From: Escherichia coli
Lineage (GTDB): Bacteria; Pseudomonadota; Gammaproteobacteria; Enterobacterales; Enterobacteriaceae
Reading direction: 5' to 3' (one strand)
DNA: 64,000 bases
NCBI RefSeq assembly: GCF_041248615.1
Contig: NZ_CP158426.1
The position numbers are program-made. Below, piece by piece: positions 6,001 to 9,000 of the stretch; positions within the stretch are counted from its first letter, which is position 1, and each line of letters starts with the position of its first letter.

Positions 6001-9000
6001 ATATACCCGCAGGGTTTGAACCAGACATTTATTTGTTGAAGTCTAAGATCCAAATGGAAGCATTTATATCCCTCAGATATTATGCGTTGACGGGTTGATA
6101 AAGATACTTTTAGAGGGTTAATAAATGGAGAACGTATAATAAATCTCTTAAACAAACTATAACCTGTACTAATGAAAAAAATGGGAATAGATAAGTTAAT
6201 AGCCTATTCTAAAAATGGTAAAGTGGTTTTACTTCCAAAATAATGGAGTTTAGTATGAAAATCGAAGCTAATTCCCTTACTCATCCCTATGACTACAACG
6301 CCTCACTGAACAATTATTTACATTATTTTGAGAATTTCTCTCGTAATGACTGGAATAAAGATTCATGTGGAGGATATTTTACTTTTAGAGATGATGACAG
6401 AGAGTGTGTTTTGTTTTTTGTGAATTATGGTGATAATTTTTCATTGCGCTATGATTGTACACAAAGTTCTGATGGAATAGTGTCATGCTGGTATAGTAAC
6501 CATGAAGATGATAAAATGAATATCATCGTCGATGCTGATACAGAACAATTTATCCCTTTAGGTTCTTGCTTACCTCCTGATATTACTTTATCAGTAATAA
6601 AAGATTTTTTCAAAAATCCTTTAGAGAAATCAAAAAAAGTAAAATGGATGAATGCAGATGACATTGACTGGTCATCTGTGTATTAAAGTTGGATTGGATA
6701 ATTATCTGTTTCAAAAATCATTAAATTTAGAACCTATCTGTTCAACAGAGCTGCCTTGAACAGCAGGTTCTTTTATGATGTCCAGGAGCGAATATGCCTG
6801 TGATGTCTGGCACTCAGCATCTGACTGACCTGGACTACTGATCCTACTCACACAGGGAGCTAGACCTGGAAGCAACCTACTGTAAGCAGTGCAGTAGCAG
6901 CCCACCTCACATCAGTCCTTGCAAGGTGTGGGCCTTTGTGATCTTGCTCTGTATTGCTGAGATCCTCAGGAAGGACTCGAAATTTAATCAGGAAGGCCGT
7001 TGCTAAAAATCAAAAAATAAATTCAAGAGCAATTTCTAAAACTTTTGAATCTACTGTATCGGATGAGGTTTTCACTCCTTTCCAAAAGGTGAGTTTTCAA
7101 GCATTCAAGTTTCTGTTATGACCAAAACTTCACCATTTAACACTAATCCGAGTATTATGTTACCATGAAGAAAAAAGATATTAGATTTGCAATATCCATT
7201 AACTCCAACTCAAGTAAGATAGAATTAATGGAAAAATTAAAAACATAATCCCAGGGCTTATTGAAATAACTCCCAGTGCATTAAGAGAAGAAAAAACATG
7301 GTAGTTATTGAAGATAATGATCTTTATGACCCTATAAAAGCAGAGGGAGTTGATGGATGGATGTATTATAAATTCATATTATCCATATTCCCATTAAAGG
7401 GAGTAGACACAACATTAGAATATCAACGGGAATTATCTTTTCTTTTCTTAAAGAAATTAAAAGATGCGGGTCTGTTAGGTGAACTTATATGCGAGGATGA
7501 TTTTCATGACTGATGACCTCTACATATATCCTCAGTTCGTGGCTGGTATTACATGATCTGACAGGGAAAGATCGTAGCGAAATCAAAAAAGACGTGGATT
7601 TCCCGGAAGCCGGTGAAGACACAGCGCTCTGCGACAAGGAGACTAAACCGCCGAGGATAACCCAGGGCAGCAGCAACGTTTTTATCAACAATCAGCCCGC
7701 CGCGCGCAAGGGGGACAAACTGGAGTGCAGTGCGGCGATCGTGGGAGGTTCGCCGGACGTCTTTATTGGGGGTGAGCAGGTCACCTATCTGGATATCCAG
7801 CCGGAGTTCCCGCCGTGGCAGAGAATGATCCTGGGGGGAATAACGATAGCCAGCTATCTTCTGCCGCCAGCGCAGGGAAAGATCACGTAACGCTGCTTTT
7901 TTGTACTAAATAATTCGCACTAAATGTTCAATAATTGAGATATTCCTTATTACCTAAATACAGTTCCACCAAGATTACCTAAACCCAAATGAGGTAAAAG
8001 ATAGTGGGTATGAATAAAAATGAAATCCATTTCCCTATAGGATATGGTTGGTTGAATGAAAAAAAAATTATTGGCACCAGTGAATTTAGCCAATTAGAAC
8101 CATGGTTTTATCTAGATGAGAACAGGTGTTTTTTTGCGAATAAAAAATGGCCAAATGTCATAGGTGAACAATTATTCGCTTTTGCTAAACGTCAAGATAA
8201 TGATGAATTGGCTTGTTTCAAAATTAATGAATCTGGAGTCTGTGAGGGTGTTTATTTAATTAATGGGTGGACTCCTAACGGGTTTGATATTATACAATTT
8301 TACCCTGATTTTTGGGAATGGGTACATTTGGTTATACAAGATGTCTCGGAGTGGATTGATAATAAAGGATAATTTGAAACAAAAGTAAAAAACCGCCTTC
8401 ATTGAAGGTAACGTGGAGTGGTGGGCGGAGCAGCCTGCCCGCAGACACAGACTACCCGGACCCGCGCGGGGAGCGGGACGCGGAAGCCGACCCCGGCCTG
8501 CTGTATGCAGGACAGTGGCAGGATGCGGAATCCGGACTGTGCTATAACCGGTTCCGGTATTACGAGCCGGAAACCGGGATGTACCTGGTGAGTGATCCCC
8601 TGGGGTTGCTGGGGGGTGAGCAGACTTACCGGTATGTGCCTAATCCTAGTGGGTATGTTGATCCTCTGGGATTAGCAACGTGTCCTATACTCAGACAGTG
8701 GGCGCTGACTAACCTTGAAGCCAGTCGGGCAGCAAGGGCTGCATCTAATTTTGGTAAGCCTCTGGTCCAGCGAAATAAAACGATTGGCGATAAAGTAAGG
8801 GATATGATTGCCAAAGAGAGGGGAACCACTCTAATTGAACAAAATTATAGAGTGACAGGAGGATTAAAGCGTATTGACGTTGTTGATGGAGTAACGGGTA
8901 TAGAATCTAAAGTCGGTCGAACAGGGTTAACAACCCGAGTACGGCAAGAGGTAGCGCGGGATATTAAGATTTTGAGAAGTGAGCAACTTGATCAAATTGA

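What the first reader, a model, noticed from the sequence alone, without database searches (positions are those of the whole stretch)
7298..7890. Stand-alone PAAR-motif ORF coupled to a small upstream ORF, with no type VI secretion genes nearby
ORF 7513-7890 carries a PAAR-type signature (QPAARKGDKLEC...GGSPDVFIGG) and overlaps the stop of a 71-aa ORF (TGATG). It ends exactly at a breakpoint sequence that recurs at 11240 next to the H-repeat element, so it is probably the displaced 5' end of another rhs gene. If expressed it would be a free PAAR-like protein.
Basis: partly seen in the sequence, partly recalled or inferred. Interest (0 to 1): 0.45.

Follow-up and report, generated by a model that had tools for sequence, protein, structure and literature searches.

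The report
Broken rhs gene fragment with half a PAAR domain
The "stand-alone PAAR gene" is a 300-base leftover from the front part of a large Rhs toxin gene, stranded among decayed toxin and immunity gene remnants and cut by insertion-sequence ends, so it is ordinary genomic debris and not a new secretion-system protein.

Summary
The sequence features are real. ORF 7513-7890 (125 aa) exists, passes the Pfam PAAR_motif threshold (46 bits, E=5.7e-12), overlaps the stop of a 71-aa ORF (TGATG), and ends in a sequence that recurs at 11242.

The interpretation mostly fails. The window is E. coli NRZ14408 (NZ_LT599825.1, 0 mismatches). Only 7573-7872 is rhs-derived. It equals codons 240-339 of the 1619-aa main Rhs effector, whose 5' end lies just upstream of the window after vgrG and an Eag/DcrB chaperone gene. 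"No T6SS genes nearby" is therefore a window-edge artefact. A complete T6SS cluster also sits about 390 kb away.

The piece lacks the prePAAR motif, the transmembrane region and the first PAAR segment. It matches only 42 of 93 residues of a free PAAR protein. Its first ~20 codons come from unrelated AT-rich DNA and its last five come from the ISEc1/H-repeat left end.

The 71-aa ORF is the tail of a 116-aa orphan immunity gene broken by two 1-nt deletions.

NCBI's annotation pipeline (PGAP) already marks the fragment as a pseudogene. Its left junction occurs in 125 and its right junction in 110 of 5426 complete E. coli genomes.

Verdict: a decayed fragment in an Rhs orphan array. Low interest.

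The parts
7573..7872 (+). rhs pseudogene fragment. It equals codons 240-339 of the class I prePAAR Rhs effector: the end of a helical insert, the second half of the split PAAR domain, and the start of the following hydrophobic helix.
   Evidence: It is 96% nt identical to the same genome's main rhs gene (L001 2622-2921) and 94-97% identical to main rhs genes of EDL933, O121 and NCTC9966. PGAP annotates it as 'PAAR domain-containing protein, incomplete, missing N-terminus and C-terminus'. Pfam PAAR_motif E=5.7e-12.
7513..7890 (+). The 125-aa mechanical ORF of the finding. It is a chimera of ~20 codons of AT-rich spacer plus IS tip, 100 rhs codons, and 5 codons plus the stop (QGKIT*) from the ISEc1 left end.
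   Evidence: In the AlphaFold model residues 3-27 have pLDDT below 50. This exact protein is already in GenBank (e.g. ELG29568.1) and was seen on 94 contigs.
7562..7573 (+). A 12-nt copy of the ISEc1/H-repeat left-end tip (CAGGGAAAGATC). It forms the left junction of the rhs fragment.
   Evidence: Exact 12-mer. Five matches in the window at up to 1 mismatch against 0.22 expected. Direct repeat D7 with 7873-7884. The junction is shared with O121 RM8352 and present in 125 of 5426 genomes.
7873..7958 (+). Remnant of the left end of an ISEc1 (H-repeat, ISAs1 family) element. It truncates the rhs fragment after codon 339 and supplies the ORF's last codons and stop.
   Evidence: 83% identical to 11242-11327 and 94.6% identical to the EDL933 ISEc1 left end. 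The junction is present in 110 of 5426 genomes.
7166..7513 (+). Orphan immunity-type gene, 116 aa when intact as in O121 RM8352. In the window two 1-nt deletions in A-runs break it. The 71-aa ORF 7298-7513 is its 3' part.
   Evidence: Alignment with L003 13624-13974. A 64%-identical homologue lies 12 nt downstream of an Rhs C-terminal toxin in a metagenome contig (L007). No Pfam hit.
6952..7169 (+). 3' remnant, itself frameshifted, of the Rhs C-terminal toxin that belongs with the immunity gene.
   Evidence: 60% aa identity over 48 residues to the C-terminus of the L007 Rhs-CT toxin, which has a weak NTP_transf_2 hit. The tail (...MTKTSPFNTNPSIMLP*), which matches the tail of the L007 toxin, was read off the window sequence by eye; the two frames translated with the tool do not contain it.
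6906..6951 (+). Right-end remnant of a diverged ISAs1-family element. It truncates the toxin remnant on its 5' side.
   Evidence: 78% identity over 46 nt to ISEc1 positions 1245-1290. There is a GC step at ~6750-6950.
11242..12532 (+). Complete ISEc1 / H-repeat element (378-aa ISAs1-family transposase, 11385-12521). It is the reference copy for the breakpoint sequence. It abuts another rhs core fragment (11031-11242).
1..2303 (+). 3' part of the main rhs effector gene. The whole gene spans window -2556..2303. It carries the intact prePAAR, TMD and split PAAR of which the fragment is a diverged copy.
   Evidence: L001 CDS 1905-6764. Pfam hits: PAAR_motif, DUF6531, RHS_repeat, prePAAR_I. N-terminal sequence.

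Best explanation
The feature is a non-functional pseudogene fragment inside the decayed 'orphan' tail of a vgrG-eag-rhs type VI effector island. The island is inserted between cusS and nfrB in E. coli NRZ14408.

Shown:
- The parent protein is a class I prePAAR Rhs effector with this order of parts: prePAAR motif, transmembrane helices, PAAR part 1, a ~100-aa helical insert, PAAR part 2, a hydrophobic helix, DUF6531, the YD-repeat cage, and the toxin.
- Only codons 240-339 survive at 7573-7872. That is the end of the insert, PAAR part 2 and half of the next helix.
- On the left the piece is joined to a 12-nt tip of the ISEc1 left end, which follows the spacer after a frameshifted orphan immunity gene.
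- On the right it is cut by a forward-oriented ISEc1 left end, of which ~86-93 nt remain.
- The 125-aa reading frame arises by accident. An ATG in the AT-rich spacer happens to be in frame with the rhs piece, and the IS end supplies the stop.

Inferred:
- A second rhs copy lost its first 717 nt in an IS-associated deletion. That state, with a longer 654-nt remnant, is still seen in O121 RM8352.
- Later, in the NRZ14408 lineage, ISEc1 inserted after codon 339 and the rest was lost.
- The product, if made at all, cannot form the three-sided PAAR cone or bind a VgrG tip. It lacks the prePAAR His/Asp and the first PAAR segment that complete a 'split PAAR'.
For: - The window is identical to NZ_LT599825.1.
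- PGAP marks 7573-7872 as a pseudogene missing both termini.
- The fragment maps to nt 718-1017 of the intact rhs genes in EDL933, NRZ14408 and NCTC9966 at 94-97% identity.
- The parent N-terminus carries AARLGDEIQH (residues 54-63), a TMD, INTGSENVNINGKPAARA and then the fragment region.
- Against Tre23 (PDB 7pq5_L) the parent aligns in two blocks, 48-155 and 254-347, while the ORF aligns only to Tre23 138-224.
- The ORF matches only residues 53-88 of 93 in c1882.
- Foldseek against c1882: fragment model 42 aligned columns, TM-score (target) 0.39; full N-terminus 0.62.
- Ahmad et al. 2020 (PMC7773334) state that prePAAR effectors have a 'split PAAR', and that prePAAR supplies a Zn ligand and is needed for VgrG binding.
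- IS-end junctions.
- The upstream ORF is a broken 116-aa gene that sits in an immunity position elsewhere.
- The fragment has Thr where the family has a 90%-or-more conserved Ala (parent A269).
- The promoter-like scan is at chance level (5 found against 4.8 expected).
Against: - The reading frame is open for 125 codons and starts with ATG overlapping the upstream stop, so translational coupling is conceivable. By my reading of the sequence, the only Shine-Dalgarno-like GAGGA lies ~15 nt upstream, which is far.
- The junctions are conserved in 110-125 complete genomes. This could reflect clonal inheritance, which is most likely, or retention.
- AlphaFold gives high local confidence (pLDDT ~90) for residues 45-115 of the ORF. 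That confidence comes from an alignment of full-length relatives and does not show that the piece folds on its own.
- No expression data could be examined.
Confidence: 0.93

Rival explanations
1. The ORF is a functional free PAAR-like protein, which is the first reader's 'if expressed' scenario. It would be translated by coupling to the 71-aa ORF and would cap a VgrG spike.
For: Pfam PAAR_motif is above threshold. The ORF is open and has the TGATG overlap. VgrG genes and a full T6SS exist in the genome.
Against: - It covers under half of a PAAR cone.
- It lacks the prePAAR motif and the first PAAR segment that relatives need for folding and VgrG binding.
- Its N-terminal ~20 and C-terminal 5 residues are junction artefacts.
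- The upstream ORF is itself a frameshifted remnant.
- PGAP calls it a pseudogene.
- It has a substitution at a nearly invariant Ala.
Confidence: 0.03
2. The fragment matters as DNA. It is a 300-bp direct-repeat homology patch, 96% identical to the main gene and ~9.9 kb downstream of it. It would allow RecA-dependent deletion or duplication with the main rhs 5' region, in the way orphan rhs modules recombine with main genes. A deletion would leave vgrG-eag-rhs(1-339)::IS, a toxin-less prePAAR-PAAR stub.
For: Direct orientation and 96% identity to L001 2622-2921. The locus is visibly rearrangement-prone: a vgrG-rhs fusion (P0029), an rhs-nfrB deletion in NCTC9966, and different truncations of the fragment in O121.
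Against: No recombinant of this kind was looked for or seen. 300 bp with 12 mismatches is a poor recombination substrate. Any such role would be incidental and not selected.
Confidence: 0.04

Closest known systems
Class I prePAAR Rhs effectors of the T6SS (Salmonella Rhs1/SciW, P. protegens RhsA/EagR1, Photorhabdus Tre23/EagR; Ahmad et al. 2020 PMC7773334; Jurenas et al. 2021 PMC8636562)
   Same: The parent gene of the fragment has the full set. It is preceded by vgrG and an Eag (DcrB/DUF1795) chaperone, and it has the AARxxDxxxH prePAAR motif, an N-terminal TMD, a split PAAR, DUF6531, YD repeats and a variable C-terminal toxin followed by an immunity gene. The fragment is 94-97% identical to codons 240-339 of such genes.
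   Different: The fragment keeps only the second half of the PAAR plus half a helix. Prosaically, it has no prePAAR, no TMD, no cage, no toxin, and no chaperone or vgrG of its own. The E. coli parent also has a ~100-aa helical insert between the PAAR halves that Tre23 lacks.
Orphan (stand-alone) PAAR proteins, e.g. E. coli c1882 (PDB 4jiw_D) and V. cholerae VCA0105 (4jiv_D)
   Same: They share the PAAR motif sequence (NQPAARKGD...C...GS.DVFIGG) and local beta structure. Foldseek rmsd is 1.9 A over 42 columns at 48% identity.
   Different: Orphan PAARs are complete ~93-aa cones with four Zn ligands. The ORF matches only residues 53-88 and keeps only two of the family's conserved Cys positions (C40, C72). 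That these two are Zn ligands is inferred from Ahmad et al., not tested here.
Orphan rhs 'C-terminal tips' with immunity genes downstream of main rhs genes (C-terminal displacement model; the Rhs element at the cusS-nfrB site, b0570-b0569, is listed for E. coli W and Crooks in PMC3032704)
   Same: Same chromosomal site and same architecture: a main gene followed by partial cores, toxin tips and immunity genes, ending in an H-repeat. The 71-aa ORF and the toxin remnant at 6952-7169 are such a decayed module.
   Different: The PAAR fragment is unusual for an orphan array because it comes from the 5' region of rhs and not from the core end or toxin tip. This implies loss of a second rhs copy's front end, not a C-terminal displacement.
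ISEc1 / H-repeat (ISAs1 family)
   Same: The breakpoint sequence is the element's left inverted repeat, CAGGGAAAGATCA. The right end, read as reverse complement, is CAGGGCAAGATTA.
   Different: At 7873 only ~86-93 nt remain. At 7562 only the 12-nt tip remains.

Membership tests
PAAR domain protein (PF05488; orphan PAAR such as c1882) | Significant match to the PAAR_motif profile | tested here: met
   46.1 bits against a cut-off of 27, E=5.7e-12, ORF residues 41-91.
PAAR domain protein (PF05488; orphan PAAR such as c1882) | A complete cone-shaped domain of ~90-100 residues built from three PAAR-type segments | tested here: not met
   The ORF aligns only to residues 53-88 of 93 in 4jiw_D, 56-89 of 93 in 4jiv_D and 57-99 of 99 in 9rce_c. 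Foldseek gives 42 aligned columns and TM-score (target) 0.39. The parent N-terminus reaches 0.62 using residues spread over ~134-310.
PAAR domain protein (PF05488; orphan PAAR such as c1882) | A full set of Zn-coordinating His/Cys ligands (four in orphan PAARs; three plus the prePAAR His in split PAARs, per PMC7773334) | tested here: not met
   The ORF keeps the conserved Cys40 and Cys72 (parent C259 and C291). It lacks the prePAAR D59 and H63 positions that are 90% or more conserved in the family.
PAAR domain protein (PF05488; orphan PAAR such as c1882) | Binds the tip of a VgrG spike | not testable with these tools
   This needs pull-down or structural work.
Class I prePAAR Rhs effector | N-terminal prePAAR motif AARxxDxxxH followed by transmembrane helices | tested here: not met
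   Absent from the ORF, because homology to the parent starts at codon 240. Present in the parent gene upstream of the window: AARLGDEIQH at 54-63, and Pfam prePAAR_I at 23.3 bits, just under its cut-off of 25.
Class I prePAAR Rhs effector | YD-repeat cage and C-terminal toxin in the same reading frame | tested here: not met
   The ORF ends five codons into the ISEc1 end. The parent gene has 11 RHS_repeat stretches.
Class I prePAAR Rhs effector | Cognate eag chaperone and vgrG immediately upstream | tested here: not met
   What lies immediately upstream of the ORF is a frameshifted orphan immunity gene. The island's vgrG and eag precede the main gene 10-12 kb upstream.
Orphan Rhs toxin/immunity module (applies to the 71-aa ORF) | A small AT-rich gene directly downstream of an Rhs C-terminal toxin domain | tested here: met
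   The intact 116-aa form starts at an ATGA overlap with the stop of a toxin remnant (6952-7169). The 64%-identical homologue P0005 lies 12 nt after an Rhs-CT toxin in L007. Immunity activity itself was not tested.
ISEc1 / H-repeat (ISAs1 family) remnant | Sequence identity to the element's terminal inverted repeat and adjacent interior | tested here: met
   7873-7958 against 11242-11327 is 83% over 86 nt. 7873-7965 against the EDL933 copy is 94.6% over 93 nt.

The most novel reading that the evidence does not exclude
The chimeric 125-aa ORF is really translated, by coupling to the residual 71-aa ORF. Its half-PAAR plus amphipathic helix would act as a small modulator, for example by competing with full effectors for a VgrG tip or an Eag chaperone. 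Alternatively, the 300-bp patch would be used for programmed recombination with the main rhs 5' region to switch the effector off.
Probability: 0.03. Interest if true: 0.4.

Novelty: already known. Interest (0 to 1): 0.08.

Why it matters
It matters little biologically. The case illustrates how Rhs effector islands accumulate debris through IS-associated deletions. It also shows that a PAAR-motif profile hit on a short ORF does not make a PAAR protein. In prePAAR effectors the PAAR domain is split, so a fragment can pass the Pfam threshold while holding less than half of the fold. There is a methodological lesson as well: "no T6SS genes nearby" was produced by the window edge, because vgrG and eag lie 3-5 kb before position 1.

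Tried and rejected
- Promoter and terminator scan of 6600-8500: counts are at shuffle level, so it is uninformative.
- Rfam scan of 6000-9000 on both strands at E up to 1: nothing.
- Pfam on the 71-aa ORF and on the 116-aa intact form: no family.
- Homologue search with the 116-aa protein: only 6 relatives, all unnamed. Its likely role was inferred from gene position only.
- I considered that the ORF might be the true 5' end of a second rhs gene. Rejected, because homology starts at parent codon 240 and the ATG lies in unrelated AT-rich DNA.
- I considered a simple ISEc1 insertion to explain the left junction. Rejected, because an insertion would place the element's right end, or the reverse complement of its left end, next to rhs, and not the forward left-end tip. 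The mechanism of the left junction remains unexplained.
- I considered microhomology between the native rhs sequence (CTGGGAAAA) and the IS end at the right junction. The IS end is present from its first base, so a plain insertion fits better.
- The minus-strand ORF 7485-7691 (68 aa) overlaps the fragment antisense to conserved rhs codons. I treated it as spurious.
- AlphaFold confidence for the fragment was not taken as evidence of independent folding, because the alignment consisted of full-length relatives.
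Full report
**Observation**

The stop TGA (7511-7513) and the start ATG (7513-7515) overlap as TGATG. The 125-aa ORF passes Pfam's PAAR_motif threshold with 46.1 bits against 27, at E=5.7e-12. The hit covers residues 41-91 and profile positions 3-56 of 70.

GC content rises from about 30-40% to 56-61% between ~7570 and ~7890 and falls again afterwards. Only the middle of the ORF therefore has rhs-like composition.

The sequence at the ORF's end recurs at 11242. The 12-mer CAGGGAAAGATC is exact at both sites, and the next 86 nt are 83% alike.

**Source and context**

The window is identical to E. coli NRZ14408 chromosome NZ_LT599825.1, positions 3843666-3907665. There are 0 mismatches over the 19,895 and 44,666 nt compared.

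In that record the window begins inside a 4860-nt rhs gene. The genes upstream run in this order:
- cusS
- a T6SS vgrG, at window coordinates about -4966..-3065
- a DcrB-related (Eag-type) chaperone gene, at -3037..-2576; Pfam DcrB E=1.4e-27
- the main rhs gene, at -2556..2303

The rest of the window (nfrBA, ybcH, envY, the sfm fimbrial genes, fol, pur and all genes and so on) holds no T6SS gene. The same chromosome carries a complete T6SS cluster at the aspV locus, about 390 kb away. It includes tssB, C, E, F, G, J, K, L (dotU), H, A and M, tagH, hcp, vgrG and an rhs gene.

The statement "no type VI secretion genes nearby" is thus an effect of where the window starts.

The cusS-nfrB site (b0570-b0569) is a listed Rhs-element site in E. 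coli W and Crooks (PMC3032704). EDL933, O121 RM8352 and NCTC9966 carry vgrG-eag-rhs islands at the same site.

**What the ORF is made of**

Only 7573-7872 (300 nt) is homologous to rhs. It aligns to nt 718-1017 of the intact main genes, that is codons 240-339. Identity is 96% to NRZ14408's own main gene, 94.3% to EDL933, 95% to O121 and 97.3% to NCTC9966. PGAP annotates exactly this stretch as a pseudogene, [quoted passage not shown].

The first ~20 codons of the ORF (MTSTYILSSWLVLHDLTGKD) come from AT-rich spacer DNA plus a 12-nt IS tip. The last five codons and the stop (QGKIT*) come from the ISEc1 end.

The exact 125-aa sequence is already in GenBank (e.g. ELG29568.1, named "type IV secretion protein Rhs" or "hypothetical protein") and was seen on 94 contigs.

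**The parent protein and why the piece is not a PAAR domain**

The parent N-terminus reads as follows:
- a helical leader
- the prePAAR motif AARLGDEIQH (residues 54-63)
- hydrophobic helices (~64-110)
- a first PAAR segment, INTGSENVNINGKPAARA (~133-152)
- a ~100-residue insert
- the second segment, ALCDKENKPPRIAQGSSNVFINNQPAARKGDKLECSAAIVEGSPDVFIGGEQV (~257-308)
- a hydrophobic helix (WQRMILGGITIASYLLPPAGLLG...), followed by DUF6531 and the YD repeats

Against the solved Rhs effector Tre23 (7pq5_L) the parent aligns in two blocks, 48-155 and 254-347. The ORF aligns only to Tre23 138-224.

Against stand-alone PAAR proteins the ORF covers only the C-terminal part: 53-88 of 93 in c1882 (4jiw_D), 56-89 of 93 in VCA0105 (4jiv_D), and 57-99 of 99 in 9rce_c.

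An AlphaFold model of parent residues 1-350, built from 66 sequences, has mean pLDDT 78. Confidence is above 90 in the prePAAR, PAAR-1 and PAAR-2 strands. Its best PDB match is c1882, at probability 1.00 and TM-score (target) 0.62 over 174 alignment columns spanning the insert. The model of the 125-aa ORF matches c1882 over only 42 columns with TM-score (target) 0.39. Its first 27 residues are unstructured.

Ahmad et al. (eLife 2020, PMC7773334) showed that prePAAR effectors have a "split PAAR". The prePAAR motif supplies the fourth Zn ligand and is required for the effector-VgrG interaction. In my alignment of 66 relatives, A54, D59 and H63 (prePAAR) and G134, G139, S140 and V143 (PAAR-1) are 90% or more conserved. 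All of these are missing from the fragment.

The fragment also has Thr at the 90%-or-more conserved Ala269 position, reading RITQGSS where relatives read RIAQGSS. So a PAAR motif is present but a PAAR domain is not.

**The upstream ORF**

In O121 RM8352 the same DNA, 98.3% identical over window 5001-7872, encodes a 116-aa protein (L003 13624-13974). In the window two 1-nt deletions in A-runs put the middle of this gene out of frame, with a TAA stop. The 71-aa ORF is what remains open from an internal ATG.

The family is tiny and unannotated: 6 hits and no Pfam match. A 64%-identical homologue lies 12 nt downstream of an Rhs C-terminal toxin, after the ...DPLGL core end, in a metagenome contig (L007).

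The window keeps the last ~70 codons of that toxin type at 6952-7169, with 60% identity over 48 residues. That remnant is itself frameshifted, and its stop overlaps the start of the immunity gene. It is cut on its 5' side by a 46-nt remnant of an ISAs1-type right end at 6906-6951.

The "small upstream ORF" is therefore the wreck of an orphan immunity gene. The TGATG overlap joins two wrecks.

**Junctions and history**

The recurring "breakpoint" is the left inverted repeat of ISEc1/H-repeat. The full copy lies at 11242-12532. Its left end reads CAGGGAAAGATCA and its right end reads ...TAATCTTGCCCTG.

At 7873 the IS end begins with its first base immediately after rhs codon 339 and continues for ~86-93 nt. 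This is the signature of a forward insertion later truncated.

At the left junction the same 12-mer (7562-7573) abuts rhs codon 240, so the rhs piece is bracketed by two direct 12-nt copies. The left junction cannot be a simple insertion junction. It must result from a deletion or illegitimate joining, and I could not resolve its mechanism.

The left junction is shared with O121 RM8352. There the rhs remnant is longer (654 nt, into DUF6531) and has no IS at codon 339. The left event therefore came first.

Among 5426 complete E. coli genomes, 125 carry the left junction and 110 carry the right one. About 2,180 carry the homologous stretch in a main rhs gene. This pattern fits clonal inheritance of a scar within a few lineages.

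**Function**

I commit to "none": a pseudogene fragment, at confidence 0.93. Promoter-like sites are at chance frequency and no RNA family matches. By my reading, the nearest Shine-Dalgarno-like GAGGA is ~15 nt from the ATG.

Two alternatives cannot be excluded without experiments. One is a translated half-PAAR peptide. The other is an incidental role of the 300-bp patch in recombination with the main gene, given that rearrangement products of this locus exist: the vgrG-rhs fusion P0029 and the rhs-nfrB deletion in NCTC9966. Each gets a few percent.

**Comparison and novelty**

The parent is a typical member of the class I prePAAR Rhs effectors, with vgrG and eag upstream. The fragment fails every defining feature of that family except the PAAR-motif hit. 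It also fails the completeness test for an orphan PAAR.

The only slightly unusual point is that debris from the 5' region of rhs sits in an orphan array. Such arrays normally collect 3' tips.

The fragment is already annotated as a pseudogene and deposited many times, so I rate it already known and of low interest.

Noticed in passing
window 7562-7573 and 7873-7884: The 300-nt rhs piece is bracketed by two exact direct copies of the 12-nt ISEc1 left-end tip CAGGGAAAGATC. The left copy is followed directly by rhs codon 240, which no simple insertion can produce. Just before it lies TGATCT, the first 6 nt of the reverse-complemented IS left end. The mechanism is unexplained.
   Followed up: partly
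window 61630-61641 (+), inside fetA: A fourth exact copy of the 12-mer CAGGGAAAGATC lies far from any IS, in a housekeeping gene. It is probably chance.
   Followed up: no
window 6906-7169: A 46-nt remnant of a diverged ISAs1-type right end (78% to ISEc1) truncates the frameshifted 3' remnant of an Rhs C-terminal toxin. That toxin is related to a weakly NTP_transf_2-like toxin seen in metagenome locus L007 7225-7989.
   Followed up: partly
parent Rhs residues ~156-253 (L001 1905-6764; upstream of the window): The E. coli cusS-nfrB Rhs effectors carry a ~100-residue, mostly helical insert between the two halves of the split PAAR. AlphaFold predicts helices at 176-206, 212-223 and 227-237. Tre23 and most prePAAR relatives lack this insert. 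Its role is unknown.
   Followed up: no
protein P0029 (326 aa, from the representative library): A called protein fuses the first ~110 residues of a VgrG to rhs residues 268 onward. It is another rearrangement product of this kind of locus in some other E. coli. P0023 shows the same rhs segment cut at almost the same codon (LLPP|) by an IS3-family end.
   Followed up: no
L004 (E. coli NCTC9966) 11284-16001: The main rhs gene is truncated and joined directly to a 5'-truncated nfrB. This is a deletion that removed the whole orphan array and the H-repeat.
   Followed up: no
window 105-2303 and 2903-5233: The 3' part of the main rhs gene and the first orphan rhs (776 aa) share a nearly identical core of ~1.9 kb in direct tandem, each with a different C-terminal toxin and immunity gene. 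This is a large substrate for recombination.
   Followed up: no
window 9652-10925 (-) and 9112-9681 (+): By ORF coordinates, an IS3-family element overlaps the last ~30 nt of the DUF4304 immunity-type gene that follows the orphan toxin at 8402-9100.
   Followed up: no
NZ_LT599825.1 4265864-4266346 (outside the window): One of the two hcp genes of the aspV T6SS cluster has an internal stop. The other (4245203-4245721) is intact.
   Followed up: no
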